Shown here: positions 7,706-19,887 of the stretch, piece after piece
How positions within the stretch are numbered: position 1 is the first letter of the stretch
How the letters are laid out: every line of letters begins with the position of its first letter
DNA from: Candidatus Dadabacteria bacterium
GTDB lineage: Bacteria; Desulfobacterota_D; UBA1144; Nemesobacterales; Nemesobacteraceae
Length of the DNA: 64,000 nt
Direction of reading: 5' to 3'
Assembly (NCBI GenBank): GCA_022819805.1
Contig: JAJEGO010000014.1
Coordinates: forward strand, 6,521 to 70,520
Made by a program: the position numbers and the translations under genes
Notes under the pieces: generated by a model
Told to the model about the DNA's origin: nothing
The model's database searches: none
What the model saw: the letters and a program-made list of their open reading frames with translations, nothing else

Positions 7706-7907
7706 AGAAATAACGTCAAGCACTTTGCCGAGACACGACAATTAACCTGGTTGGGAGTTATATATAATCCTAACCAAGAGAGAATAGATGGAGACGTTTA
7801 AATCTCTTAATCGTCAAAGTCTCTTATAATTTTTTCGGGATACCATTTTACGCCGTCAAACGTTATCAGGTAATATCCACTATCCGAAAAGCCCGAGGGG
7901 TGTTCAA

Positions 7908-8144
7908 TTGAGCATGGACTCGAAAAAACTAGCAAAGACAGGAACCGAAAACCTCAATGTCGCAATCTTGAGTGTCCTGCGTACAAACGGCTGGCTTACA
8001 GTTAGAGAAATTTCAGAAAAACTCGCTATACCTTATAGGTGTGGTTGTAGAAACTTGATTAGACCCTTTTTGTGGGAATTACGCAGAGAGGGTCGGGTCG
8101 TCAAAGAGAAAAAACACGGTTGGAAATGGGGTTTGCCTGTCTGA
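7908..8144 (+). CDS. Small hypothetical protein, possibly winged-helix DNA-binding, in the AT-rich islet
   Basis: 78-aa ORF in a region of about 33-40% GC. The stretch ILSVLRTNGWLTVREISEKL resembles a recognition helix. Weak call. Confidence 0.3.
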   Translation: MSMDSKKLAKTGTENLNVAILSVLRTNGWLTVREISEKLAIPYRCGCRNLIRPFLWELRREGRVVKEKKHGWKWGLPV

Positions 8145-8217
8145 GTCTCGGGGATGTCCAGTCAAGAATGTAATTGAACCGATTGATGCAACGCCGGAAC
8201 AGATATAGAAGGTTGCT

Positions 8218-8493
8218 ATGAAAAGAGCAATTTTCTTGTTGTTAGTTTGTTGCATCCTGTTTTTACCAGTTGATGTAAAAGCCGGTTGCAACGATACAGA
8301 ACTCGCTCTATACAGAGAGTGCATGATTGTATCTGAACTGGCAGAAAATATACTAACTTCGCCAGGGTCGTATGAATGGGAAGAGATGGAACGGATAGCA
8401 GACTATATGGAAATATGTGCCAAATTTTTTAGTAGCGACATAGGCAGAATCAACGATTGTAAGAGGCGAGCGTTAGGGAAGCCAAACCCATAA
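8218..8493 (+). CDS. Small secreted Cys-containing hypothetical protein in the AT-rich islet
   Basis: Signal-peptide-like N-terminus MKRAIFLLLVCCILFLPVDVKA. Four further Cys. About 30% GC. Confidence 0.3.
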   Translation: MKRAIFLLLVCCILFLPVDVKAGCNDTELALYRECMIVSELAENILTSPGSYEWEEMERIADYMEICAKFFSSDIGRINDCKRRALGKPNP

Positions 8494-8672
8494 CTACTTA
8501 TTGCGGATTAAAGAACATTGGGAAAAGCAAGAATTTTCCAATGGAAAGCTCAAATATTGCCGAAGAGAGGGTGAATTTATCAATAAAACGGTGGCGGATT
8601 TGTCAATAGGAATCGGGCACATTTGATATTAGCGTGACAACCAGAATTCAAATACGGCCTGTGGAGAGTGAG

Positions 8673-8746
8673 AGCGGGCGACGGGATTCGAACCCGCGAC
8701 CCTTGGCTTGGGAAGCCAATGCTCTGGCCAGCTGAGCTACACCCGC
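8673..8746 (-). tRNA. tRNA-Gly (anticodon CCC)
   Basis: Manual fold of the reverse complement GCGGGTG-TA-GCTC-AGCTGGCCA-GAGC-A-TTGGC-TTCCCAA-GCCAA-GGGTC-GCGGG-TTCGAAT-CCCGT-CGCCCGC-T. The 7-bp acceptor stem includes one G-U pair. The T-loop is TTCGAAT. The anticodon loop TTCCCAA gives anticodon CCC. CCA is not encoded. Confidence 0.8.
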
Positions 8747-8838: not shown

Positions 8839-9771
8839 ATGTTCTCCGTGGATAAGACTCGCCGGACAGGACACCTGCTCACAGAAAAAGTAAACCCGAG
8901 AACGGTCAATATTGACGAACTTTCGTGTTCGGAAATCATCGATCTTATAGGTGGTGAGGACCGGGAGGCTTTTGAGGCCGTCTCCAGAGAAAAGGGCTCC
9001 ATTTCACGGGCGGCGGAAATGGTTTTCCGCTCACTTGAATGCGGCGGCAGAATTTTTCTCGTCGGGGCGGGAACAAGCGGGCGCCTCGGGGTGATGGAAG
9101 CCGCCGAATGTCCGCCGACTTTCGGGACGGATCCCGAAAGGGTGCAGGCGGTTATGGCGGGAGGGCGAGACGCGGTATGGAATTCGGTTGAGGGTGCTGA
9201 GGATTCCGCAACGGCTTCGGTGGAGACTCTTCGGGGCAAAAAACTCTCAGAGGACGACGTGACTTTGGGAATCGCGGCAAGCTCCGGGACGCCGTTTGTG
9301 ATATCGGCCCTTGAATACGCGCGGACAGTCGGCTGCGCTACCATACTTATAAGCTGCAGCGAGCCGGAGAACGCCCCGGCCGACCTGGTCATACCCCTTC
9401 TCGTCGGTCCGGAAGTGATAGTGGGCTCAACGAGGCTCAAGGCCGCGACCGCGACCAAGATGGCACTTAACATGATTACGACGGCCGCCATGGTGCTCCT
9501 CGGAAAAACTTACGGGAACCTGATGGTTGACCTTAAACCCACGTCCTCAAAACTTGCCGACAGGGCAAGGAGAATCATAATGGAGATATGCGGTGTGGGG
9601 GAAGAAGAAGCCGCCTCGCTTTTCAGGGAAGCAGGCGGGAACCTCAAAGTTGCCGTGGTAATGAAACTCGGGGGTCTCTCGCCTGAAGAATCTGTCAGTT
9701 TGCTAAGAGAGAACGGCGAATCCTTAAAGAAAACCCTTGCAACCATATCCCCCAGAATGGGAAATCCGTAA
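8839..9771 (+). CDS. murQ: N-acetylmuramic acid 6-phosphate etherase MurQ (SIS domain)
   Basis: The N-terminus LTEKVNPRTVNIDEL and the SIS motif IFLVGAGTSGRLG are typical of MurQ. About 300 aa. Confidence 0.85.
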   Translation: MFSVDKTRRTGHLLTEKVNPRTVNIDELSCSEIIDLIGGEDREAFEAVSREKGSISRAAEMVFRSLECGGRIFLVGAGTSGRLGVMEAAECPPTFGTDPERVQAVMAGGRDAVWNSVEGAEDSATASVETLRGKKLSEDDVTLGIAASSGTPFVISALEYARTVGCATILISCSEPENAPADLVIPLLVGPEVIVGSTRLKAATATKMALNMITTAAMVLLGKTYGNLMVDLKPTSSKLADRARRIIMEICGVGEEEAASLFREAGGNLKVAVVMKLGGLSPEESVSLLRENGESLKKTLATISPRMGNP

Positions 9772-9887
9772 TCTGGACGCTTGTCAAACCGCAAATCGAC
9801 CGCTAAGACGATTCCCCATGGTTTCCGTACAATCATTCATTCCAAGGTTGCTGGCTCCAACTATCCAGGCTGCGTTAGAGGATACAG

Positions 9888-9990
9888 AAGTGCAGATCGA
9901 GGACTTTATCTGAGTTTGTGCTTTTTCGGTTGCGGCGTTGAAAGAGACCTCGGTCAGCGGGTCTCGGGAGCGACCCTTTCCCTTTGCTAC
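9888..9990 (+). pseudogene. Chimeric remnant: a roughly 25-37 bp anmK-like fragment fused to a roughly 65-bp nagZ-like fragment
   Basis: The core 9891-9912 (gatacagaagtgcagatcgaggactttatctg) matches anmK 10155-10186 (gataccgaagtgcggatcgaagactttatctg); including flanking bases the match extends to about 9885-9912. 9923-9990 (ttttcggttgcggcgttgaaagagacctcggtcagcgggtctcgggagcgaccctttccctttgc) matches nagZ 11445-11510. Both matches have only a few mismatches. Confidence 0.5.
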
Positions 9991-10036
9991 GGAATGTTCC
10001 TGCCCAAGACCAGTTTCATCAGGTAGCTTTCTCTCC

Positions 10037-11224
10037 GTGAACTGGCTTCGTCCGATAATTTCAAAAAAGGAAAAACTCATCATCGGACTCATTTCCGGGA
10101 CTTCAATGGACGGTATTGACGCGGCGCTGGTGAGAATTCGCGGCTCGGGAGAAGATACCGAAGTGCGGATCGAAGACTTTATCTGCCGGGAGTATTCCGA
10201 TGCCGCGAGGAGGCTTCTTCTCTCAATCGGTTCCCTAAACGCCGGTTCCCTTTCCGACCTCAATTTCCTCCTCGGCCGGGAGTTTGCCGCCGCAGTCTTT
10301 GATCTTCTCAGCAAAGCATCCCTGAAAACGACCGACGTGGATCTTGTGGGCACCCACGGCCAGACGGTTTTTCACAATCCGCCCTCTCTCGGGGGGGATA
10401 TTTCTTCAACTCTTCAGCTCGGCGAAGCTGACGTTATATGCGAGGCAACGGGAATTACCACCGTGGGAGATTTCAGGACGAGGGACATGGCGGCTGGCGG
10501 AGAAGGTGCTCCCCTTATGCCCTACGTGGATTACCTGCTGTTCTCTGGAACCGGGAAGAACATAATCGCCCAGAACATAGGGGGTATTTCCAACTGCACT
10601 TTGGTTGCGGGGAAACCCAGGGAGCTTCTGGCGTTCGATACGGGCCCCGGCAATTCCCTGATCGATTCGGTGGCGCGCCTTGCATCGGGAGGCGAGAAGA
10701 GCTTTGACGAGGACGGTGCGATGGCAAAGCAAGGTTCGGTTAAAGAAGATCTCCTGCGCAGCCTCATGAAAAATCCTTACTTCGACATAGAGCCCCCTAA
10801 ATCGACCGGCAAGGAGCTTTTTGGAGAGGAAATGGTCACAAGGCTTTTTCTGCTTGTAGAAAAAAAGGACATCTCCCTGCCCGATCTTCTGCGCACGCTT
10901 GTCGAATTTACCGTCTGTTCCATAGTCTCGGCCTACGAAAGATTCATCTATCCTCGCGCGGATGTGGAGGAAGTGATACTGAGCGGAGGTGGTGCCCGAA
11001 ACCCTCTCATGGTTTCCAGGCTTCGCGAAAAACTCGCTCCGACGCGGCTTCGGCTTTCGGATGAATACGGTATTCCCGCGGATGCCAAGGAAGCCGTGGG
11101 ATTCGCGGTACTCGCGAATGAGACCGTGTGCGGGAACCGGGCCAACGTGCCGGAAGTCACGGGAGCCCGAGACTCCACGGTTCTGGGGAAAATCTCAATC
11201 GGGAAGAATATAGTAAATGTATGA
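10037..11224 (+). CDS. anmK: Anhydro-N-acetylmuramic acid kinase AnmK
   Basis: GLISGTSMDGIDAALV N-terminal signature. The start is probably GTG at 10037 (VNWLRPIISKKEKLIIG), because no ATG lies in frame upstream of the signature. About 395 aa. Confidence 0.85.
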   Translation: MNWLRPIISKKEKLIIGLISGTSMDGIDAALVRIRGSGEDTEVRIEDFICREYSDAARRLLLSIGSLNAGSLSDLNFLLGREFAAAVFDLLSKASLKTTDVDLVGTHGQTVFHNPPSLGGDISSTLQLGEADVICEATGITTVGDFRTRDMAAGGEGAPLMPYVDYLLFSGTGKNIIAQNIGGISNCTLVAGKPRELLAFDTGPGNSLIDSVARLASGGEKSFDEDGAMAKQGSVKEDLLRSLMKNPYFDIEPPKSTGKELFGEEMVTRLFLLVEKKDISLPDLLRTLVEFTVCSIVSAYERFIYPRADVEEVILSGGGARNPLMVSRLREKLAPTRLRLSDEYGIPADAKEAVGFAVLANETVCGNRANVPEVTGARDSTVLGKISIGKNIVNV

Positions 11225-11285
11225 GAATCCGGCAGTTTTCTCGTCAAAAGATCTCACCGCGCCCCGTCGCTCGGCGCAGTTTATT

Positions 11286-12734
11286 ATGCCGAGGATCGAT
11301 TTTCGAGATCCCGATTCCGTCAGGAGGGCGGAACTCCTCGTGCGGGATTTCTGCGTCTGCGGTTTCATAGTATTCAACGGGGAAGTTGAGCAGGTGAGGG
11401 AAACCACCGGTAGGCTTGCGTCCTTGTCCGAGTTCCCGCTTCTCTTCGGTTGCGACGTTGAAAGGGGCCTCGGTCAGCGGGTCTCGGGAGCGACCCTTTT
11501 TCCCTTCGCGATGGCCCAGGGGGCGATGGACGACGAGGAGGCCCTGAGACGCCAGGCCGTTATAACCGCCCGGGAGATGAAGTACTGCGGCCTTAACCTT
11601 GGTTTTGCCCCCGTTCTTGACATAAATACCGAGCCCAAAAACCCGATAATAAACGTGAGGGCGTTCTCAGATGACCCCGCGGTCGTTTCAAGACTGGGAA
11701 GCGTCTTCGCGGAGACCCTGCAGAAAGAGGGAGTGCTTGCCTGCGCAAAGCATTTTCCCGGCCACGGCGCCGCCCTGGAGGATTCCCATGCCCGGCTCCC
11801 AAGCGTCGAAAGATCCTTAGAGCGTCTTATGGAATCGGATATTGCGCCTTTTAGAGAAGCGATTGCGAAAAGGCTTCACTGCGTGATGCCGGCTCATGTC
11901 TGTTTTCCCTCTCTTGACCCGCTCGGTGCCCCGGCCACCCTGTCAAAGCCGGTCCTGCACGGCCTCCTGCGGGAAAAACTGGGATTCAGCGGCTTGGTTG
12001 TTTCTGACTCCTTCAGGATGGACGCCTTGGGGGGAGAGGAGCGGGAAGAGGAAAACATTCTGGCCGCCATTGCAAGCGGGGTTGATATTGTTTTGGATCC
12101 CAGAGATCCCGAGGGCTTCCTTAAAAGATGCGCGGAGGAGGATTTTTTTCAGGATCCCGCCCGGGCAGAGTCTCTTTCCAGGATATTCTACGCGAAAAAG
12201 CTTTTCGCCTCGGGCGGCGAAGAAGAGAGCACGCCCGATTTTGAGAGAAACGCCGGAGAGGCAAGGGAAATTACCCGCCGCTCGGTCTGCGTTTTGCGAG
12301 GAGAAGCTCTTCGCGGCAGGAAAGTCTCAGTTTTGCATTTCGGTACGGAAGACACAGAAGAGCTTCTCGGCGGACTTTGCGGGGGGCTCTCCGAGGGGGG
12401 AGTGGCGGTGGAGAAGAGTTTTTCCTGGTCCGAGGCACCGGAGCTTCGCGACGATCGCCCGCTTGTATGCGTTTTATCAACCGCTCCGGCGGGCTGGACG
12501 GAAAACAGCGTTGTTCCCCGGGCTGTAATGGATCGCATAAAGGATTTCTCCTCTTTCTCGGGTGAAAAAGTCCTGATTACCTTCGGTTCCCCGTATCCTG
12601 CCGCCGGGTTTCCTTTTTTCGATACTGTTGTCTCGCTTTTTGATTCCTCGCCCACGGCGGGCCGGGCGGCTGCGGAGGTTCTCACGGGAGAGAGGTCTTC
12701 TGCGGCAAGGCTTCCGGTGAAAATAACGCTATGA
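11286..12734 (+). CDS. nagZ: Beta-N-acetylhexosaminidase NagZ (GH3) with a C-terminal extension
   Basis: GH3 motifs KHFPGHG, VMPAHVCFP and GLVVSDSFRMDALGG. The alternative in-frame start at 11217 overlaps the anmK stop. Confidence 0.85.
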   Translation: MPRIDFRDPDSVRRAELLVRDFCVCGFIVFNGEVEQVRETTGRLASLSEFPLLFGCDVERGLGQRVSGATLFPFAMAQGAMDDEEALRRQAVITAREMKYCGLNLGFAPVLDINTEPKNPIINVRAFSDDPAVVSRLGSVFAETLQKEGVLACAKHFPGHGAALEDSHARLPSVERSLERLMESDIAPFREAIAKRLHCVMPAHVCFPSLDPLGAPATLSKPVLHGLLREKLGFSGLVVSDSFRMDALGGEEREEENILAAIASGVDIVLDPRDPEGFLKRCAEEDFFQDPARAESLSRIFYAKKLFASGGEEESTPDFERNAGEAREITRRSVCVLRGEALRGRKVSVLHFGTEDTEELLGGLCGGLSEGGVAVEKSFSWSEAPELRDDRPLVCVLSTAPAGWTENSVVPRAVMDRIKDFSSFSGEKVLITFGSPYPAAGFPFFDTVVSLFDSSPTAGRAAAEVLTGERSSAARLPVKITL

Positions 12735-14473
12735 AGCTCTACGCCATAGACTGGATGCTTGTTGGTCTCTATCTGGTTTTTTCCCTGGGCGTGGGCTTTT
12801 ATTTTTCAAGAAGGGCGTCGGGGAGTCTTTCTGACTATTTCGTTTCGGGACGCGGGCTTCCCTGGTGGCTTCTTGGAACCTCCATGGTCGCCACCACTTT
12901 CGCCGCCGACACTCCCCTTGCCATAACGGGGTGGATAAGAACCGAGGGAATATGGAAGAACTGGTTCTGGTGGAACTACATCTTCAGCCACGCGCTCGTG
13001 ATAGTGGTTTTCTCAAGGCTCTGGAGAAGGGCGGAGGTGATAACCGACAACGAGCTCATAGAGCTTCGCTACGGGGGCCGCCCCGCGGCGTTTCTCCGCG
13101 GCTTCAAGGCGTTTTATTTCTCGACGATTTTCAATTTCATAGTCATGGGGTGGGTGATCACCGCCATGACCAAGGTGTTTGAGGTCTTTTTCGGAGTCGG
13201 GCAGATATACGCCGTTTCGCTCTGCGTCGGAATCGTGCTCGTCTACACGGTTTTCTCCGGGCTCTGGGGAGTCGTGATAACGGATTTCGTGCAGTACGCA
13301 ATAGCGCTGGGCGGCACGATCATACTCGCCGTTGTGGTCATAAATTCTGACGCGGTCGGAGGGTACAGTCAGTTCGTAAGCAAAATAGCGGAACTTCCCC
13401 CGGAGCAGACTTCCATGTTCATCACGCAGCCCACAGGCGGCGAAGAGTTTTTCTCTTCTGATTTTTTCACCTTCCTTGTCTTCATGACCGTCGTCTGGTG
13501 GTCTTCCCACAACGCGGACGGGGGAGGCTATTTCATACAGCGCCTGTGCTCCGCGAAGAACGAGAGACACGCGCTTGCGGGCACCGCCTGGTTCGCGGTT
13601 AACCATTACGTGCTCCGCCTCTGGCCCTGGGTCCTGGTCGCCTTGGCCTCGGTCGTGATCTTTCCCGAAGCGGCGGGGGTGACGGGCGGGGACGACGAGT
13701 CGATGTACCTTGTGATGATAAGGGATTTTCTCCCTCCGGGCCTTCGGGGCCTTCTGCTGGTTTCCTTTCTCGCGGCGTTTATGTCCACGGTCTCCACCCA
13801 CCTTAACTGGGGCGCGTCGTACCTCGTGAACGACCTCTACAGAAGATTCGTGCGCCAAAGCGCCCCGCAGGGTCATTACGTGCGGGTCTCAAGGATCGCG
13901 ACCGTCGTGCTTGCCGTCATCGCGGGCGTGGTGGCGCTTCAGATAAAGAACATAGGGGACGCATGGATATTTCTCTGGGCAATGAGTTCGGGAATCGGCC
14001 TCGTGCTGATACTGAGGTGGTTCTGGTGGAGGATAAACGCCTGGAGCGAGATAGTGGCGCTTGCCTCGTCGCTTGCGACCATACTGGTTTTGATTCTCTA
14101 CACAGAAGCGAAGGGAGTTCCGCTGGAACTGCGCCACCAGATACTTGTTGTTCCCGTCTCGATAACCTGCTGGGTTGTGGCTACTTTCGTTACCTCTCCC
14201 GAGTCCTGGGAAAAACTCTCGGCATTCTACTCGAGGGTAAGGCCCCCGGGCCTCTGGTCGCCTGTCCGGAAGAGGGCGGGGGTTGCGCCGCAGCGGGGAG
14301 TTTTTTCTTCGGTTTTTCTTAACTGGTCGCTTGTGGTGTCTTTCCTCCTCTGTTTCATGATAGGCGCGGGCAAGCTCGTTCTTGGAGACGGCGAAAGCGC
14401 GCTCTGGCTTCTTTCGGTCTCGGCGGTTGCGTTTCTCCTCATCCTGCGCCGTCGCCACAGTTTTTTCCGCTAA
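12731..14473 (+). CDS. Sodium:solute symporter (SSS/SSF) family permease
   Basis: 580 aa with about 13 TM helices. Start overlaps the nagZ stop (ATGA coupling). Confidence 0.8.
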   Translation: MKLYAIDWMLVGLYLVFSLGVGFYFSRRASGSLSDYFVSGRGLPWWLLGTSMVATTFAADTPLAITGWIRTEGIWKNWFWWNYIFSHALVIVVFSRLWRRAEVITDNELIELRYGGRPAAFLRGFKAFYFSTIFNFIVMGWVITAMTKVFEVFFGVGQIYAVSLCVGIVLVYTVFSGLWGVVITDFVQYAIALGGTIILAVVVINSDAVGGYSQFVSKIAELPPEQTSMFITQPTGGEEFFSSDFFTFLVFMTVVWWSSHNADGGGYFIQRLCSAKNERHALAGTAWFAVNHYVLRLWPWVLVALASVVIFPEAAGVTGGDDESMYLVMIRDFLPPGLRGLLLVSFLAAFMSTVSTHLNWGASYLVNDLYRRFVRQSAPQGHYVRVSRIATVVLAVIAGVVALQIKNIGDAWIFLWAMSSGIGLVLILRWFWWRINAWSEIVALASSLATILVLILYTEAKGVPLELRHQILVVPVSITCWVVATFVTSPESWEKLSAFYSRVRPPGLWSPVRKRAGVAPQRGVFSSVFLNWSLVVSFLLCFMIGAGKLVLGDGESALWLLSVSAVAFLLILRRRHSFFR

Positions 14474-14507: not shown

Positions 14508-15128
14508 ATGGTTGCTATGGCGATTAACGTAAAAGTGCTCAAGCGGCCGCAACTCTCCTTCTGGGAAAAACTCTATATTCCCCAGGTGCTGAGGGGTCTT
14601 ATGATCACCATAAGGCATATAACGCATTTTCAGCCGATAACCGTAAAGTACCCCGAGGAAGTAAAGGCTCTTCCCGAGAACTACCGGGGACTTCACGTGA
14701 TGCCGGGCGATGACGAGGGGGAGATAAGATGCGTTGCGTGCAAGCTCTGCGAAATCGCCTGCCCCACCCAGGCCATCTCCATAGTCTCTGAACCTGCCGA
14801 CGACTACGGCATCGAGAGAAGGCCCAAGGTCTACAACATAGATTTCATGCGCTGCGTTTTCTGCGGCTTCTGCGTCGAGGCCTGCCCGTGCGACGCGCTT
14901 AGGATGGGTATGAAATACGAGCTTTCCTCCTACAACCGCGCGGGGCTCGTTCACACAAAAGAGGTTTTCTTCGACCCCAACATAAAAAGCGAGGCCCCTA
15001 GGGACAACGCGAACTTCCTTTACAAGATGCACAAGGGGGAGATACTCGATTCTCCAGAGGAAATCTCAAGAATAATGGGGCTAGACGGCACCTACTCAGA
15101 GAAACCCGACCCGCCTGCAGCCACCTGA
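14508..15128 (+). CDS. NuoI-like 2x[4Fe-4S] ferredoxin subunit (complex I subunit I family), stand-alone
   Basis: The N-terminus FWEKLYIPQVLRGLMITIRHI...PITVKYPEE and two CxxCxxCxxxCP motifs (CVACKLCEIACP; CVFCGFCVEACP) match NuoI. No other nuo genes are nearby. Confidence 0.7.
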   Translation: MVAMAINVKVLKRPQLSFWEKLYIPQVLRGLMITIRHITHFQPITVKYPEEVKALPENYRGLHVMPGDDEGEIRCVACKLCEIACPTQAISIVSEPADDYGIERRPKVYNIDFMRCVFCGFCVEACPCDALRMGMKYELSSYNRAGLVHTKEVFFDPNIKSEAPRDNANFLYKMHKGEILDSPEEISRIMGLDGTYSEKPDPPAAT

Positions 15129-15459: not shown

Positions 15460-18400
15460 ATGGTGGAACATAAGCGGCTTGTCTCTCGGGTAGAGTGCCA
15501 GCGAAAACCCCTCTTGTCCCCGCATCCAGGCAAGGAAAGGGCCAAGCCAGTCCCGAACCGGGCGGATTTTGGGTTACTTGAAACCTTACTGACGCTCTTT
15601 TGCCTAAAGGCCCTGCGTTCCTCATCTTTTATTAGAAAAACAGCAATCCTGAAAAGCAGGATCTGCCTCCTGCTGGCGGTGCTTTTGCCGCTAGCGGTTC
15701 TTTCCGTAACCGCACACGCTGCCAACGGGGATCTTCGATTGTGCGATACCACGGTCACGAACAGCTGTACGGTTACGACTGACATAGGCAGGCTCGAAGT
15801 TGAGTATAACGGGATGTGGAAGGGGGTGTGCGATGACTATTTCACGAGTCACGAGGCAAGAGTCGCGTGCGGGCAATTAAATTACCCCAATTCACGATAC
15901 GCTAAGACTCTGTTGAGGCTGGACGGACCGACGAGAGCGCATCGTCATAACGGCGAATTCTGGCTTGATGATCTGCTCTGTGGCCAAGGTGATAATACTG
16001 TGGACAACAAGCTGATGGATTGTGCTAGGGCTGGTTCTGGTGCAGGTAATGAAATTGAACCCGGAGAGTCTGGTTATTGGGGGGAGCATAACTGCAAAAG
16101 CAATGAATATGCGGGGGTTGTATGCGTTATCACCGCTCCGGCTAAGCCTACGAACCTGGAAGCGGAAGCTAAGGGGCAGAGCATGATAGTGCTTAATTGG
16201 CGTGCTCCCAACTCCTATGTGGAAGGCTACAAAATCGAGGTCTCAGAGAATGGTGGCAACGACTGGGATGATCTTGAGTCCGACACTGGCAATGCGGACA
16301 CGACATATACCCATAGCGGCCTCCCTCCCAGCGCCACGCGACACTACCAGGTTTCGGCTATTAACTCAGAGGGCACAAGCGATCCTTCAAACATAGCAAG
16401 CGCCACGACAGAAGGCGTACCTCCTCCTTCGGATCAACCTGGAACGGTGGCCCTGTCTTTTTCGCAGCTCGAGATCGGGACGGCGTTAACTGCGACTTTA
16501 ACTGATCCTGACGGTTCTATAGCGAATGTCGAGTGGACATGGTACAGGTCAGCTGACAAAAGCAACTGGAATCCGATCTCCGGCGCCACGAGCAGCGGTT
16601 CTGCGACCGCGACCTACACGCCGGTTGCCGACGGCGATCCGAATGTTGAAGATGACGAGGATAAATACCTGCGGGCGGTGGCCTCTTATGACGATGGCCA
16701 CGGTCCCAATAAAAGCGCGGAGGCGGAATCCGCCAGCAAGGTTCCTGCAGTAAACTGGGCGCCCTCCTTTGATCCTGATCCGCCACCGAGCACCTTTTCT
16801 GTTGACGAGAACACGGGGACTGGAGTAAACATCGGGACGCCGATCGGGGTTACGGATCCGGAAGGTGAACCGCTCACCTACTCGCTTGACGATGGGGACG
16901 GCGATTCGTTCGCCATTGATTCCTCCGGGCAGATAAAGACCAAGTCGGCGCTTGACTACGAAGTCAAAAGTTCTTACACGGTCGAAGTTAAAGTCACGGA
17001 CGGAACCACGGAGATTACGACCACCGTGACCATTAACGTAACCAATGTTGAGGAAGATGGGACCGTGACCCTGTCTAGTTATTCTCCGAATGTGGGAATA
17101 GAGCTGACCGCTGAATTGGAGGATCCTGACGACGGTGTAACGGGTATCACATGGCAGTGGCAGCGCAAGTCATCCGGCGGGACTTTCACGAATATCCCCG
17201 GCGCCACGAGCAGCGGTTCTGCGACCGCAACCTACACGCCGTCCACAGGAGATCTGAATCATCTTCTGCGGGCAAAGGCATCCTACACGGACGGGCACGG
17301 TTCCAACACCGACATGGCGTATGCGGATTCAAACGAAGCGGTAACGGACACATGCCCTCCAAACCACCAAAACGAGGCGCCCGAGTTCAAAATCTCACCA
17401 CCCACGTTTTCTGTGGCTGAGAACACGAGGTCCGGAGTAAATGTCGGGACGCCGGTTACGGCTGAGGATGGAGACGCCGGTCAGCAAATCAGGCTCACCT
17501 ACTCGCTTGACGATGGGGACGGCGATTCGTTTTCCATTGAGAATGACAATTCTCCCGGGCAGATAAAGACCAAGTCGGCGCTTGACTACGATACGCAAGA
17601 TTCTTATACGGTCACGGTTTCCGTAACGGATCCGTGCGGCGAGGAAGATACCATCGACGTAACAATCAACGTTACCGAGCCCGCACCTCCGTCTTCAAAC
17701 ACGAGGGCACCCAACTCCGAGGTGACGAAGTCCGCCCCGGCTCCAACGGCAAAGGTTCCGCAGGCTCCCGCGAATTTAACTGCGGGGCGCGGTGACGGCG
17801 AGGTAACGCTTAGCTGGAGGGTCCCGAATGACGGCGGAAGCGTTATTAAGTACTACGAATACATGATTGATGATGGCCCGTGGATCTCGACCAAGGGAAA
17901 ATCCACTACCCACACTGTCGCCGGGCTTACCAACGGAGAGACCTATAAATTCAAGGTGCACGCGGTGAACGTCATCGGTCCCGGTCCCGGGTCAAGACCG
18001 GTGAAAGCCACGCCTGCCACCGTGCCCGGCCCCCCGCGCAATCTGACGGTGGCTCCGGGCGATCAGCGCGCGACGCTTATGTGGGAGCGGCCTGCGGATA
18101 ACGGCGGTCTTCCGATCACCAGTTACGAGTACGTCCAGAAGGAGGGAAGCGGCTCGTTCGGCAGCTGGATATCCATAGATAACAGCGGTCCCATGGAGAC
18201 AAATGAAACGAGCTATGTGGTCACGGGACTTAAAGACGGCACCGTTTATTCTTTCAAGGTGCGCGCGGTGAACGCCGTGGGTCCGGGAGACGCCTCGGCC
18301 GAGGCCACGGCCGAGACGAGCACTTCCGCCTCCCGGCGCCTGAGGCGCGTCAGCCTCAGCATTCTTCCCGAGTTCGGGAGGACCCTGGCGAGGAATTCCC

Positions 18401-19887
18401 TTGACGCGCTTGCCTGGCGTCTTGACAGCGTCCTTTCGGGATCCTTTGAGCGTACGGGGATGTTCAGGCTTATGGATCAGCACGCGGGGCTCCACGATGT
18501 CATCGGAATTGATATATGGGATGATCCGGAACTGTCGGAAGAGCTCAGCCTCGAGGAGTTGCTCTACGGGTCTTCATTCATAATCGAGGCCGGAGGGATG
18601 CCTAGGAAACCAAAGCAATATCCAACAAAACAGCGGCCTAAGGAAGCTCCCAAGAAGCATGCCGGGGAACATTCGAAAGAATTACCGGAAGAATTACGGA
18701 GGGAATATCCTCAGGATGAGGATATGTGGATTGACGAGGGCGGAAAACCGAATCTCATCGAGAGGCGGGGCGATATGGCGTTTTGGGGCAAGGCGGACTA
18801 CAGCGCCCTCTCGGTCGGCAGAAGCGGCGAAAACCTGAGCTGGGATGGCGGCATAACAAGCGGTTATCTCGGGGTCGACAGACGGTTAACCGAGAATGTG
18901 CTGACGGGAATTTCCGTCGCTTTGACGAAGGGAGATTTCGATTACACGGACTCCACCCCGGGGGAGGGAGGAAGCGGAGATTACCATGTGAAGATGCTCA
19001 GCGTGTCTCCGTACATCGCGTGGCTTATGTCCGAGGATGCTTACCTCTGGGGCGCAATCGGCTATGGACGCGGGGAAATAGACATAGACGACGAAGAAGT
19101 CCAGAGCGTCGCTTCAGGCGACCTCAGCTACAAGTCGGTGGCCGCGGGAGGAAGTGGCAGAGTGTTTGACTTGGGAGACACTACCTTCTCGCTTAAAGGT
19201 GAAGCGTTTAAGGTATGGATGGACGTGGAGGGCGAAGATTACCTGATTGATGACTCATCCGTGGGTGTACACCAGCTGCGCCTCGGCATGGAGGGAAGCT
19301 ACGAGTACCGCTTCGCGTCCGGAGCCTGGTTCAATCCCCTTGTGGAGGTCGCTCTTCGCCACGACGGGGGAGACGGGGAGACGGGCACCGGGGTTGAAAT
19401 CGGAGGCGGTTTCCTCTTCGAAGACCCGGATATGGGTCTTAGCATTGCGGGCAGGGGGCGCTGGCTGGCGGTGCACAGTTCCGATGAGTTCAGTCAATGG
19501 GGAGTTGGAGGAACCGTGATCTTCGATACGGGAGCGGACAAAGAAGGCGCGCTGTTCAGCGTGGCTCCCGGATGGGGAGACACTTCAAGCGGGATTGAGA
19601 ATCTCTGGGAGCGCGGAGCGGAAGGGGTGTCGTCAGAATACGGCAGAGACAACAGTCTGCATCTTGACGCGGAGTTCGGATACGGACTCCCGGCTCTCGG
19701 CGGGGACGGGATTCTCACTCCCTACAGCGGACTCAGGATGAGAGCAGACGGGTGGCGACAGTACCGCCTCGGCAGTCGTCTGGATCTCGGGCGTTCTACG
19801 AGTCTGAGCCTTGAAACCGAGCGAAGGCAGAGCGATGCGAAGAAGCCTGAGCACGGAATCATGCTGAGAGGAAAGCTTAATTTCTGA
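15460..19887 (+). CDS. Giant surface protein, predicted type V autotransporter adhesin with SRCR-like, FN3 (x3), cadherin (x2) and unclassified repeat (x2) passenger modules
   Basis: 1475-aa ORF. A signal-peptide-like segment (ILKSRICLLLAVLLPLAVLSVTAHA) follows a roughly 60-aa N-terminal extension. The SRCR-like domain spans residues about 91-223 (EVEYNGMWKGVCDD, ARVACGQL, FWLDDLLC, WGEHNC, AGVVCV). Two cadherin repeats carry F-S-V-D/A-E-N, LTYSLDDGDGDSF, QIKTKSALDYE/D and TVTINVT motifs. FN3 modules have W..P..GG..I..Y.Y and Y.F.V.AVN motifs. A helical linker precedes a roughly 370-aa C-terminal beta-domain ending ...GIMLRGKLNF, i.e. a terminal Phe. Confidence 0.8.
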   Translation: MVEHKRLVSRVECQRKPLLSPHPGKERAKPVPNRADFGLLETLLTLFCLKALRSSSFIRKTAILKSRICLLLAVLLPLAVLSVTAHAANGDLRLCDTTVTNSCTVTTDIGRLEVEYNGMWKGVCDDYFTSHEARVACGQLNYPNSRYAKTLLRLDGPTRAHRHNGEFWLDDLLCGQGDNTVDNKLMDCARAGSGAGNEIEPGESGYWGEHNCKSNEYAGVVCVITAPAKPTNLEAEAKGQSMIVLNWRAPNSYVEGYKIEVSENGGNDWDDLESDTGNADTTYTHSGLPPSATRHYQVSAINSEGTSDPSNIASATTEGVPPPSDQPGTVALSFSQLEIGTALTATLTDPDGSIANVEWTWYRSADKSNWNPISGATSSGSATATYTPVADGDPNVEDDEDKYLRAVASYDDGHGPNKSAEAESASKVPAVNWAPSFDPDPPPSTFSVDENTGTGVNIGTPIGVTDPEGEPLTYSLDDGDGDSFAIDSSGQIKTKSALDYEVKSSYTVEVKVTDGTTEITTTVTINVTNVEEDGTVTLSSYSPNVGIELTAELEDPDDGVTGITWQWQRKSSGGTFTNIPGATSSGSATATYTPSTGDLNHLLRAKASYTDGHGSNTDMAYADSNEAVTDTCPPNHQNEAPEFKISPPTFSVAENTRSGVNVGTPVTAEDGDAGQQIRLTYSLDDGDGDSFSIENDNSPGQIKTKSALDYDTQDSYTVTVSVTDPCGEEDTIDVTINVTEPAPPSSNTRAPNSEVTKSAPAPTAKVPQAPANLTAGRGDGEVTLSWRVPNDGGSVIKYYEYMIDDGPWISTKGKSTTHTVAGLTNGETYKFKVHAVNVIGPGPGSRPVKATPATVPGPPRNLTVAPGDQRATLMWERPADNGGLPITSYEYVQKEGSGSFGSWISIDNSGPMETNETSYVVTGLKDGTVYSFKVRAVNAVGPGDASAEATAETSTSASRRLRRVSLSILPEFGRTLARNSLDALAWRLDSVLSGSFERTGMFRLMDQHAGLHDVIGIDIWDDPELSEELSLEELLYGSSFIIEAGGMPRKPKQYPTKQRPKEAPKKHAGEHSKELPEELRREYPQDEDMWIDEGGKPNLIERRGDMAFWGKADYSALSVGRSGENLSWDGGITSGYLGVDRRLTENVLTGISVALTKGDFDYTDSTPGEGGSGDYHVKMLSVSPYIAWLMSEDAYLWGAIGYGRGEIDIDDEEVQSVASGDLSYKSVAAGGSGRVFDLGDTTFSLKGEAFKVWMDVEGEDYLIDDSSVGVHQLRLGMEGSYEYRFASGAWFNPLVEVALRHDGGDGETGTGVEIGGGFLFEDPDMGLSIAGRGRWLAVHSSDEFSQWGVGGTVIFDTGADKEGALFSVAPGWGDTSSGIENLWERGAEGVSSEYGRDNSLHLDAEFGYGLPALGGDGILTPYSGLRMRADGWRQYRLGSRLDLGRSTSLSLETERRQSDAKKPEHGIMLRGKLNF

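What the first reader, a model, noticed from the sequence alone, without database searches (positions are those of the whole stretch)
8839..14473. Peptidoglycan-recycling operon murQ-anmK-nagZ ending in an SSS-family permease instead of AmpG
MurQ, AnmK and NagZ are tightly linked, and anmK/nagZ/permease overlap by ATGA-style coupling. MurQ is the MurNAc-6P etherase, AnmK the anhydro-MurNAc kinase and NagZ the beta-N-acetylglucosaminidase. The last gene is a 13-TM sodium:solute symporter-family transporter. It is not an MFS AmpG-type muropeptide permease, nor a MurP PTS component. Its position makes it a candidate Na+-coupled importer of anhydro-muropeptides, GlcNAc-anhMurNAc or MurNAc. I do not recognise that as a characterised function for this family. 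The cluster sits immediately next to a tRNA gene and an AT-rich islet.
Basis: inference. Interest (0 to 1): 0.55.

Follow-up and report, generated by a model that had tools for sequence, protein, structure and literature searches.

The report
Sodium symporter for cell-wall sugar salvage
A sodium-driven membrane transporter of an uncharacterised subfamily sits in an operon with three enzymes that break down recycled bacterial cell-wall sugars; because relatives in several phyla are repeatedly wired to cell-wall-degrading genes, it is a strong, untested candidate for a new route of cell-wall sugar uptake.

Summary
murQ (8839-9771), anmK (true start GTG 10037, ends 11224), a cytoplasmic NagZ-type GH3 gene (11217-12734) and a 580-aa SSS-family permease (12731-14473) lie on one strand. 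The anmK/GH3 overlap (8 nt) and the GH3/permease overlap (ATGA) are confirmed. murQ is separated from anmK by a 265-bp spacer that holds gene fragments.

The permease is not a PutP, PanF or ActP orthologue. It belongs to a large, unnamed SSS subfamily: 896 clusters at 50% identity reach E<=1e-30. Its closest solved relatives are the sugar and sialic-acid symporters SGLT, vSGLT and SiaT. The residues that align with the vSGLT Na2 site are conserved.

The order murQ-anmK-GH3-SSS is kept in 55 of 80 related genome loci, and partly kept in 16 more. Relatives at 41-52% identity sit in differently built loci with GH3, GH3 fused to a beta-lactamase-fold domain, NamZ, MurQ, SpoIID/LytB, sugar kinases and NagX/MurT-like genes (37 of 91). 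No other neighbour theme recurs.

I conclude it is a Na+-coupled importer of MurNAc-type peptidoglycan sugars. Free (anhydro-)MurNAc is my favoured substrate and GlcNAc-anhMurNAc is the main alternative. I found no paper describing this role for the family. All evidence is comparative; nothing is biochemical.

The parts
7706..8570 (.). AT-rich, strain-specific islet abutting the 3' end of the tRNA gene. It is not part of the operon.
   Evidence: GC is 0.40-0.43. The segment is absent or replaced by 0.14-2.2 kb of other DNA in close relatives, while both flanks align at 80-90%. No integrase gene and no att-like repeat were found.
8672..8746 (-). tRNA-Gly (anticodon CCC), 92 bp upstream of murQ and divergent from it
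   Evidence: ARAGORN and Rfam tRNA at 69 bits. The tRNA-murQ adjacency is kept even in relatives whose permease is only 63-65% identical, L029-L032.
8839..9771 (+). murQ, N-acetylmuramic acid 6-phosphate etherase
   Evidence: TIGR00274 equivalog, 324.6 bits against a cut-off of 302; also NF003915 at 352 bits.
9772..10036 (+). murQ-anmK spacer carrying gene fragments. 9877-9912 copies anmK 10150-10185 (89%). 9925-9979 copies the GH3 gene at 11445-11499 (95%).
   Evidence: Repeat search. No Rfam match in the spacer. In relatives the same gap holds 0.1-5.5 kb of insertions.
10037..11224 (+). anmK, anhydro-N-acetylmuramic acid kinase. The GTG start is inferred.
   Evidence: NF007148 equivalog, 446 bits against a cut-off of 387; Pfam AnmK 318 bits. 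The start is set by alignment with the L029 orthologue.
11217..12734 (+). NagZ-type GH3 beta-N-acetylglucosaminidase, 505 aa, cytoplasmic, with an unassigned C-terminal region of about 200 aa
   Evidence: Pfam Glyco_hydro_3, 234 bits. The NagZ equivalog NF003740 scores 178.5, below its cut-off of 207. The motif KHFPGHGAALEDSH sits at residue 178 and there is no hydrophobic N-terminus. The C-terminal 205 aa have no significant Pfam hit.
12731..14473 (+). SSS-family (SLC5-like) permease, 580 aa; the candidate Na+/peptidoglycan-sugar symporter
   Evidence: Pfam SSF 150 bits. AlphaFold model with pLDDT 93.5. The best structural matches are SGLT1/2, SiaT and vSGLT. Residues aligned to the vSGLT Na2 site are A54, F57, A349, S352 and T353. 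Synteny is shown.
14508..15128 (+). Stand-alone NuoI-like 2x[4Fe-4S] ferredoxin gene, 34 bp after the permease. It is a conserved neighbour and is probably not part of the pathway.
   Evidence: TIGR01971 NuoI, 130 bits. It follows the permease in about 60 Dadabacteria-clade loci but in none of the more distant loci.

Best explanation
The 580-aa protein is a Na+-coupled secondary importer of the SSS family. It is specialised for MurNAc-type sugars released from peptidoglycan.

**Proposed mechanism (all steps inferred).**
1. Lytic transglycosylases and amidases in the periplasm release anhydro-muropeptide sugars.
2. The permease uses the sodium gradient to carry free 1,6-anhydro-MurNAc, and probably also MurNAc, into the cytoplasm. 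Both are N-acetylated sugar acids of about 275-295 Da, close in size and chemistry to the sialic acid carried by SiaT.
3. AnmK opens the anhydro ring and phosphorylates the sugar to MurNAc-6-P.
4. MurQ removes the D-lactyl ether to give GlcNAc-6-P.
5. The cytoplasmic NagZ-type enzyme in the same operon trims GlcNAc from any disaccharide that reaches the cytoplasm.

**What is shown.** The gene identities, the overlapping reading frames, the fold, the conserved residues aligned to the Na2 site, and the recurrent genomic association.

**What is inferred.** The substrate, the direction of transport and the coupling ion.
For: **Enzyme identities.** MurQ and AnmK pass curated equivalog cut-offs. The GH3 protein carries the NagZ-type Asp-His motif.

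**Operon structure.** anmK, the GH3 gene and the permease gene overlap by 8 and 4 nt.

**Synteny in close relatives.** Of 80 genome loci, 55 have the full murQ-anmK-GH3-SSS order. Sixteen more have part of it. Three have murQ-anmK-SSS with no GH3 gene, so the permease stays with the MurNAc enzymes even where GH3 is missing.

**Context of distant relatives.** Among 91 relatives at 41-52% identity, 37 have at least one peptidoglycan-linked neighbour. The figure is 22 of 44 where both flanks exceed 3 kb. The neighbours are GH3 or GH3/beta-lactamase-fold 31, NagX/MurT-like 15, SpoIID/LytB 13, NamZ 12, MurQ 10 and AnmK 5. The other 54 loci share no alternative theme.

**Loci that imply monosaccharide uptake.**
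- The Calditrichaeota locus L171 encodes a BadF-type kinase, a lipoprotein GH3 fused to a beta-lactamase-fold domain (so periplasmic), two SSS genes, MurQ and peptide-catabolic genes.
- The Acidobacteriota locus L172 has the order SSS-MurQ-SIS.
- NamZ and the fusion enzymes carry signal peptides, so the monosaccharides would be produced outside the cytoplasm.

**Family placement.** The subfamily forms a separate clade from PutP, PanF and ActP, and peptidoglycan-linked neighbours are scattered through all its branches. Its nearest solved relatives carry sugars and sialic acid.

**Ion site.** A54, A349, S352 and T353 are invariant or at least 90% conserved.

**Precedent.** Characterised SSS substrates are small. 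They include the amino-sugar acid GlcNAc1A carried by OngIT and the sialic acids carried by SiaT and SiaX.
Against: - No transport data exist for any member of the subfamily.
- In this operon, and in the marine Fidelibacterota-like operon, the GH3 enzyme has no signal peptide. It therefore needs a disaccharide inside the cell. The operon encodes nothing that would make free anhMurNAc in the periplasm. That fits disaccharide import better.
- About 60% of the distant relatives have no recognisable peptidoglycan-linked neighbour.
- Much of the 55/80 synteny is vertical inheritance within one lineage. The number of independent observations is therefore closer to four or five architectures than to 55.
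- Some tblastn 'GH3' neighbours turned out to be proteins with only the beta-lactamase fold.
- The pocket residues were not inspected in three dimensions.
Confidence: 0.45

Rival explanations
1. AmpG analogue. The permease imports the disaccharide GlcNAc-1,6-anhydro-MurNAc (and/or GlcNAc-MurNAc), possibly still carrying peptides. Cytoplasmic NagZ then splits it, AnmK phosphorylates the anhMurNAc, and MurQ finishes the job. The four-gene operon would then be a self-contained recycling module.
For: - The GH3 enzyme has no signal peptide, and its gene overlaps the permease gene.
- A cytoplasmic NagZ also sits in the same operon as the permease in the marine pelagic clade (L072, L074, L078, L080).
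- The same is true of the Fidelibacterota-like operon, whose order is nagZ, ROK kinase, SpoIID-like, SSS, NagX-like.
- That operon resembles the Tannerella cluster lytB-ampG-namZ1-murT-murK-murQ, with the SSS gene beside the lytB-like gene (where Tannerella has ampG) and a MurT-like gene also present.
- No AmpG homologue was found in the window or in 164 loci.
- Disaccharides, not free anhMurNAc, are the turnover products reported to be released and taken up by Tannerella.
Against: - No SSS transporter is known to carry a disaccharide. The 2021 family review mentions none.
- At 478 Da this substrate would be larger than any SSS substrate I know of (my own knowledge).
- Loci such as L171 and L162 put the GH3 fusion enzyme in the periplasm and show no cytoplasmic NagZ.
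- Three Dadabacteria-clade loci lack the GH3 gene in the operon.
- An AmpG gene elsewhere in the genome could not be excluded.
Confidence: 0.3
2. The permease carries another small product of cell-wall breakdown. Candidates are GlcNAc, D-lactate (the MurQ by-product) or a stem-peptide amino acid.
For: - NagZ releases GlcNAc and MurQ releases D-lactate.
- SSS members include monocarboxylate carriers, with weak hits to MctC and ActP models.
- Fifteen to eighteen loci carry two different SSS genes side by side. That suggests a division of labour between two sugars.
Against: - The constant partners are the MurNAc-specific genes murQ, anmK and namZ, not nagA, nagB or nagK.
- The nearest structures are sugar and sialic-acid carriers, not SMCT or ActP.
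- A Na+-driven symporter is a poor exporter of D-lactate (inference).
- In loci with two SSS genes, the shorter YidK-like paralogue is the more natural GlcNAc candidate.
Confidence: 0.1
3. The permease has an unrelated substrate, such as an osmolyte, amino acid or vitamin. Its position is then a frozen accident of gene order in one lineage.
For: - Most of the conserved synteny lies in one phylum-level lineage, where even the unrelated nuoI-like gene stays adjacent.
- Fifty-four of 91 distant relatives have no peptidoglycan-linked neighbour.
- Public annotations call these proteins 'proline symporter'.
Against: - The association recurs in at least four differently arranged loci from different phyla.
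- The nuoI adjacency does not recur outside the lineage.
- No other theme recurs among the neighbours.
- The PutP and PanF models are failed by wide margins.
Confidence: 0.1

Closest known systems
SiaT / SiaX, the Na+/sialic acid symporters (SSS family; SiaT of Proteus mirabilis, PDB 5NV9/5NVA)
   Same: Same fold and family (Foldseek E 2e-16, TM-score 0.68-0.82). Both are Na+-coupled. Their substrates are N-acetylated sugar acids of about 300 Da, scavenged from glycans and delivered to a dedicated cytoplasmic pathway.
   Different: Only 19-20% identical. The new protein has about 80-100 extra C-terminal residues with two more helices. It has a Trp-rich TM2 motif, WKNWFWW, and a TM6 motif, WWSSHNADGGGYFIQR. 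It is linked to murQ/anmK rather than to nan genes.
OngIT, the SSS transporter for N-acetylglucosaminic acid (GlcNAc1A) in marine chitin oxidation
   Same: An SSS member shown genetically to import an acidic amino sugar. It is encoded in a catabolic cluster and groups with the sugar/sialic-acid branch of the family.
   Different: Different pathway (oxidised chitin). Its deletion mutant grew normally on MurNAc.
vSGLT and human SGLT1/2 (Na+/sugar cotransporters)
   Same: The best sequence and structure matches among solved proteins: phmmer E 2e-27 to vSGLT and Foldseek E 1e-19 to SGLT1. The positions aligned to the Na2 site match.
   Different: About 21% identity. The residues aligned with vSGLT N260, Y263 and W264 in the TM6 break (which I recall as galactose-contacting) are S259, A262 and D263 here. 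The genomic context also differs.
AmpG (MFS muropeptide:H+ symporter)
   Same: A possible functional analogue. It feeds NagZ, AnmK and MurQ with anhydro-muropeptide sugars.
   Different: Unrelated fold and family, and proton-coupled. There is no detectable similarity, and no AmpG homologue lies in the window or the related loci.
TfMurT of Tannerella forsythia (MurNAc importer encoded in murTKQ)
   Same: A PTS-independent MurNAc importer encoded next to a sugar kinase and MurQ.
   Different: It is related to the NagX/HGSNAT-like family (PF07786/DUF5009), not to SSS. One paper loosely calls it 'sodium symporter superfamily' and, elsewhere in the same text, 'MFS'. NagX/MurT-like genes lie next to this SSS gene in 13-15 loci, so the two are partners rather than substitutes.

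Membership tests
Solute:sodium symporter family (SSS, TC 2.A.21, Pfam PF00474) | Significant match to the family profile over the core | tested here: met
   PF00474 scores 150 bits against a cut-off of 22.8, covering residues 36-437. The stricter TIGR00813 superfamily model scores 160.6, below its cut-off of 184.
Solute:sodium symporter family (SSS, TC 2.A.21, Pfam PF00474) | LeuT-type fold with broken TM1 and TM6 helices | tested here: met
   AlphaFold model with pLDDT 93.5 and pTM 0.92. Helix breaks fall at residues 57-59 and 254-266. The top 40 Foldseek PDB matches are all SSS proteins.
Solute:sodium symporter family (SSS, TC 2.A.21, Pfam PF00474) | Na2 site: two backbone positions in TM1, plus an Ala and a Ser-Ser/Thr pair in TM8 | tested here: met
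   Aligned to vSGLT A62, I65, A361, S364 and S365 are A54, F57, A349, S352 and T353. The vSGLT residue list is from memory. A54 is invariant, and A349, S352 and T353 are at least 90% conserved in 37 diverse relatives. Actual Na+ dependence cannot be tested here.
PutP / PanF / ActP / MctC equivalogs (characterised SSS specificities) | Score above NCBIfam's curated equivalog cut-off | tested here: not met
   PutP 124.5 vs 515.5. PanF 75 vs 328. YidK-like 62.7 vs 401. MctC 27.7 vs 670. The subfamily forms a separate clade in the NJ tree.
AmpG (MFS muropeptide permease) | Sequence homology to AmpG or an MFS fold | tested here: not met
   tblastn with E. coli AmpG at E<=1e-3 gave no hit in the window or in L001-L164. 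The permease has the SSS fold.
MurQ (MurNAc-6-P etherase) | Equivalog model above its cut-off | tested here: met
   TIGR00274 scores 324.6 against 302, covering 288 of 291 model positions.
AnmK (anhydro-MurNAc kinase) | Equivalog model above its cut-off | tested here: met
   NF007148 scores 446.4 against 387. Pfam AnmK scores 318 bits.
NagZ (GH3 beta-N-acetylglucosaminidase) | GH3 catalytic domain with the NagZ-type motif KH(F/I)PG(H/L)G-x4-D(S/T)H (motif recalled from the literature) | tested here: met
   PF00933 scores 234 bits. KHFPGHGAALEDSH is found at residue 178.
NagZ (GH3 beta-N-acetylglucosaminidase) | Equivalog model above its cut-off | tested here: not met
   NF003740 scores 178.5 against a cut-off of 207. 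The protein is 505 aa and has an unassigned C-terminal region of about 200 aa. It should be filed as NagZ-type, not as an orthologue of E. coli NagZ.
Peptidoglycan-sugar importer (functional class) | Demonstrated uptake of MurNAc, anhMurNAc or a muropeptide | not testable with these tools
   Only genomic context is available.

The most novel reading that the evidence does not exclude
The permease is a sodium-driven replacement for AmpG. It imports the disaccharide GlcNAc-1,6-anhydro-MurNAc. That would be the first disaccharide substrate for the SSS/SLC5 family. It would also be a new, widespread route of cell-wall recycling in Dadabacteria, Fidelibacterota and other mostly uncultured phyla.
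Probability: 0.3. Interest if true: 0.65.

Novelty: new variant of a known kind. Interest (0 to 1): 0.5.

Why it matters
Known importers of peptidoglycan sugars are AmpG (MFS), MurP (PTS), TfMurT (NagX-like) and the ABC systems Opp-MppA and YejBEF-YepA. The Tannerella work could name no transporter for free anhydro-MurNAc, and as far as I recall none has been identified elsewhere.

If this SSS subfamily carries MurNAc-type sugars, it would have four consequences:
- It adds another unrelated transporter family to cell-wall salvage.
- It supplies a concrete candidate for the anhMurNAc importer.
- It gives a function to a large subfamily (896 clusters at 50% identity with E<=1e-30) that databases now label 'proline symporter'.
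- It strengthens the proposal that Dadabacteria and marine Fidelibacterota feed on cell-wall debris.

The claim is cheap to test by complementation in E. coli.

Tried and rejected
- **My own frame error.** In one search I translated anmK from 10039, which is out of frame. This wrongly suggested that AnmK was fast-evolving or replaced in distant loci. Reading L029 exposed the error, and one search corrects it.
- **Regulatory RNA in the spacer.** Rfam at E<=1 found only the tRNA between 7500 and 15600.
- **Promoters and terminators.** Counts were not above shuffled expectation: 4 vs 2.5 and 13 vs 10.3. The 'terminator' at 9959 is part of the duplicated GH3-gene fragment.
- **The idea that TfMurT is an SSS protein**, which would have made the finding already known. 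It is rejected on Price et al. 2022. The original Ruscitto 2016 paper could not be read.
- **Kinase in the marine operon.** The sugar kinase of 314-392 aa in the marine operon has no PDB sequence match. It is ROK-family by Pfam and was not pursued further.
- **Naming organisms.** Looking up large-genome homologues gave no names.
- **att-like repeats around the AT-rich islet.** None were found.
- **Other recycling genes in the rest of the window.** Only the 25 most frequent of 80 matched Pfam families were visible, and all were housekeeping.

Full report
**What is in the window**

Four same-strand genes occupy 8839-14473.
- The first passes the curated MurQ equivalog model (TIGR00274, 324.6 vs 302 bits).
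- The second passes an AnmK equivalog (NF007148, 446 vs 387).
- The third has the GH3 catalytic domain (234 bits). It falls short of the NagZ equivalog cut-off (178.5 vs 207).
- The fourth matches the Pfam sodium:solute symporter family (150 bits).

The GH3 protein carries the NagZ-type motif KHFPGHGAALEDSH. It has no hydrophobic N-terminus, so it should be cytoplasmic. Its C-terminal 205 residues match no Pfam family.

The anmK/GH3 overlap (ATGtaTGA) and the GH3/permease overlap (ATGA) are real.

The AnmK domain begins at residue 47 of the long TTG ORF. Orthologues start about 15 residues before the conserved IGLxSGTS motif. The real start is therefore most likely GTG 10037, which leaves a 265-bp murQ-anmK spacer.

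That spacer holds a 36-nt copy of an anmK segment and a 55-nt, 95%-identical copy of a GH3-gene segment. It looks like a recombination scar.

tRNA-Gly(CCC) lies 92 bp upstream of murQ on the other strand. Next to its 3' end is an AT-rich stretch, 7706-8570, which close relatives lack or replace.

**What kind of transporter it is**

The permease scores far below the cut-offs of every characterised SSS equivalog (PutP 124 vs 515, PanF 75 vs 328, MctC 28 vs 670).

Its best solved relatives by sequence are vSGLT (E 2e-27), SGLT1/2 and SiaT.

An AlphaFold model built on 37 diverse relatives is confident (pLDDT 93.5). It shows about 15 membrane helices, with the broken TM1 and TM6 typical of the fold. 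Foldseek ranks SGLT1/2, SiaT and vSGLT first.

Aligned to vSGLT, the Na2-site positions are A54, F57, A349, S352 and T353. A54 is invariant, and A349, S352 and T353 are at least 90% conserved across the subfamily. Sodium coupling is therefore plausible but unproven.

The subfamily is large. An exhaustive search found 3977 cluster representatives at E<=1e-10 and 896 at E<=1e-30. None carries more than a generic name.

**Synteny in the close lineage**

A genome scan returned 80 loci, mostly labelled Dadabacteria or Thermodesulfobacteriota.
- With the correct anmK frame, 55 have murQ-anmK-GH3-SSS in that order.
- Sixteen have part of it, because of contig ends, insertions between murQ and anmK, or a missing GH3 gene.
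- Nine have none of it, and two of those have almost no upstream sequence.

The same operon occurs in low-GC marine genomes whose permease is only 48-50% identical (L072, L074, L078, L080).

This is strong conservation, but it is largely vertical inheritance. The unrelated nuoI-like gene is equally conserved downstream within the Dadabacteria-clade loci.

**Independent architectures**

The more informative evidence comes from 91 relatives at 41-52% identity. tblastn with representative neighbour proteins found at least one peptidoglycan-linked gene in 37 of them, and in 22 of the 44 with more than 3 kb on both sides. Pfam and NCBIfam identified the recurrent neighbours as follows:
- GH3, often fused to a beta-lactamase-fold domain
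- the exo-muramidase NamZ
- SpoIID/LytB
- MurQ
- a NagX-like membrane protein
- a ROK-type kinase
- a second, shorter SSS paralogue

I read the beta-lactamase-fold domain as resembling the B. subtilis MurNAc-L-Ala amidase AmiE. That reading comes from my own knowledge and was not tested.

Three arrangements stand out.
1. **A marine operon.** One locus (L073) is labelled Fidelibacterota. Its order is cytoplasmic nagZ, ROK kinase, SpoIID-like, SSS, NagX-like. The genes overlap, and a lipoprotein GH3/beta-lactamase fusion and NamZ are encoded divergently.
2. **A Calditrichaeota locus, L171.** It holds an AraC regulator, a BadF-type kinase, a lipoprotein GH3 fusion, two SSS genes and MurQ. These are followed by a Na+/alanine symporter, peptidase S13, a DAP-decarboxylase-like gene, NlpC/P60 and an MR_MLE enzyme. 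It reads as a complete cell-wall catabolic locus.
3. **An Acidobacteriota locus, L172.** Its order is SSS-MurQ-SIS.

The 54 loci without such neighbours share no other theme. Their neighbours are housekeeping genes such as dnaN, recF and gyrB, or glycogen genes.

In a neighbour-joining tree the subfamily is separate from E. coli PutP, PanF and ActP and from the shorter paralogue. Peptidoglycan-linked contexts occur in every major branch.

My rough estimate, not a computed control, is that a random gene would have such a neighbour within 8 kb only a few percent of the time.

**Which substrate**

The constant partners are MurNAc-specific: MurQ together with AnmK or a sugar kinase, and NamZ. I therefore take the substrate to contain MurNAc or anhydro-MurNAc.

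Arguments for a monosaccharide:
- Every characterised SSS substrate is small. The nearest analogues are the sugar acids carried by SiaT, SiaX and OngIT.
- Loci such as L171 and L162 place the glycosidases in the periplasm.
- Three loci keep murQ-anmK-SSS with no GH3 gene.
- Pocket-lining motifs are conserved across the whole subfamily, which suggests one substrate type.

Arguments for the disaccharide GlcNAc-anhMurNAc:
- The cytoplasmic NagZ gene sits in the same operon as the permease gene in three clades, overlapping it here and in the marine pelagic loci.
- No AmpG homologue lies in any locus.
- The marine operon resembles the Tannerella lytB-ampG-namZ1-murT-murK-murQ cluster, with the SSS gene beside the lytB-like gene, where Tannerella has ampG.

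I put about 0.45 on (anhydro-)MurNAc, 0.30 on the disaccharide, and 0.10 each on another wall-derived solute and on an unrelated substrate.

**Comparison with what is known**

TfMurT shows that non-PTS, non-AmpG MurNAc import exists. Price et al. relate it to NagX (PF07786), not to SSS. A 2018 paper calls it 'sodium symporter superfamily' in one place and 'MFS' in another.

Ten full-text searches found no paper connecting an SSS protein with murQ, anmK or AmpG. The 2021 review of prokaryotic SSS proteins does not mention muramic acid or peptidoglycan. The Dadabacteria genomics paper proposes peptidoglycan degradation but names no transporter.

I therefore rate the finding as a new variant of a known kind: a known transporter family and a known pathway, with a predicted new substrate class.

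**Limits**
- No experiment supports the function.
- Whole genomes could not be searched for AmpG.
- The genes in the related loci were called with a simple longest-ORF rule, which performs poorly in GC-rich DNA.
- The three-dimensional pocket was not examined.

Noticed in passing
window 9772-10036 (fragments at 9877-9912 and 9925-9979): The murQ-anmK spacer contains a 36-nt copy of anmK 10150-10185 (89%) and a 55-nt copy of the GH3 gene at 11445-11499 (95%), only 12 nt apart. It looks like the scar of a deleted duplicate of anmK-nagZ. It also creates a misleading TTG-9938 extension of the anmK ORF.
   Followed up: partly
L004 1990-7300, L010 1740-7300; also L007, L027, L057 (gap between murQ and anmK): In close relatives the same spacer is an insertion hotspot of 0.1-5.5 kb. 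L010 carries IS transposases (DDE_3) and DUF4143. L004 carries a Fic protein and a methyltransferase. Four genomes have an enolase-superfamily (MR_MLE) plus GFO/IDH/MocA oxidoreductase pair just upstream of anmK. The same two families flank the SSS gene in the unrelated locus L161.
   Followed up: partly
window 7706-8570: This AT-rich islet at the 3' end of tRNA-Gly is strain-specific. Relatives have 0.14-2.2 kb of different DNA at the same site. It encodes a 91-aa ORF with a lipoprotein-like N-terminus (8218-8493). There is no integrase and no att repeat.
   Followed up: partly
window 14508-15128: A stand-alone NuoI-like 2x[4Fe-4S] gene lies 34 bp after the permease, with no other nuo genes beside it. 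The adjacency is kept in about 60 Dadabacteria-clade loci. The only other complex-I-like hit seen in the window is a NuoE-like 2Fe-2S thioredoxin-fold protein.
   Followed up: no
window 15460-19887: A 1475-aa protein combines SRCR, PKD, cadherin and three FN3 domains with a C-terminal autotransporter beta-domain. This is an unusual eukaryote-like adhesin architecture.
   Followed up: no
L070, L073, L084-L096 (e.g. L087 4644-10933): The marine operon has the order nagZ, ROK kinase, SpoIID/LytB-like, SSS, NagX/MurT-like, with overlapping genes. The SpoIID-like protein shows no signal peptide in any of 13 loci. That is odd for a lytic transglycosylase or amidase enhancer.
   Followed up: partly
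L171 6394-7902, L162 6512-8011, L083 4248-5873 and about 15 other loci: A second, shorter SSS paralogue (about 500-540 aa) lies directly beside the long one in peptidoglycan loci. Its best curated-model hit is the YidK-like NF007790. It may be the GlcNAc partner of a two-symporter system.
   Followed up: partly
L070 3429-6458, L087 1661-4609, L162 3663-6512, L171 3195-6077: These are lipoprotein fusions of GH3 (N- and C-terminal domains) with a beta-lactamase-fold domain, 950-1010 aa long. They could be a fused NagZ-AmiE-type exo-glucosaminidase/amidase acting on muropeptides outside the cytoplasm.
   Followed up: partly
literature (PMC5790795 vs PMC9007349): Published descriptions of TfMurT's family disagree. 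Within one paper it is called both 'sodium symporter superfamily' and 'major facilitator superfamily'. Elsewhere it is described as NagX/HGSNAT-related.
   Followed up: yes
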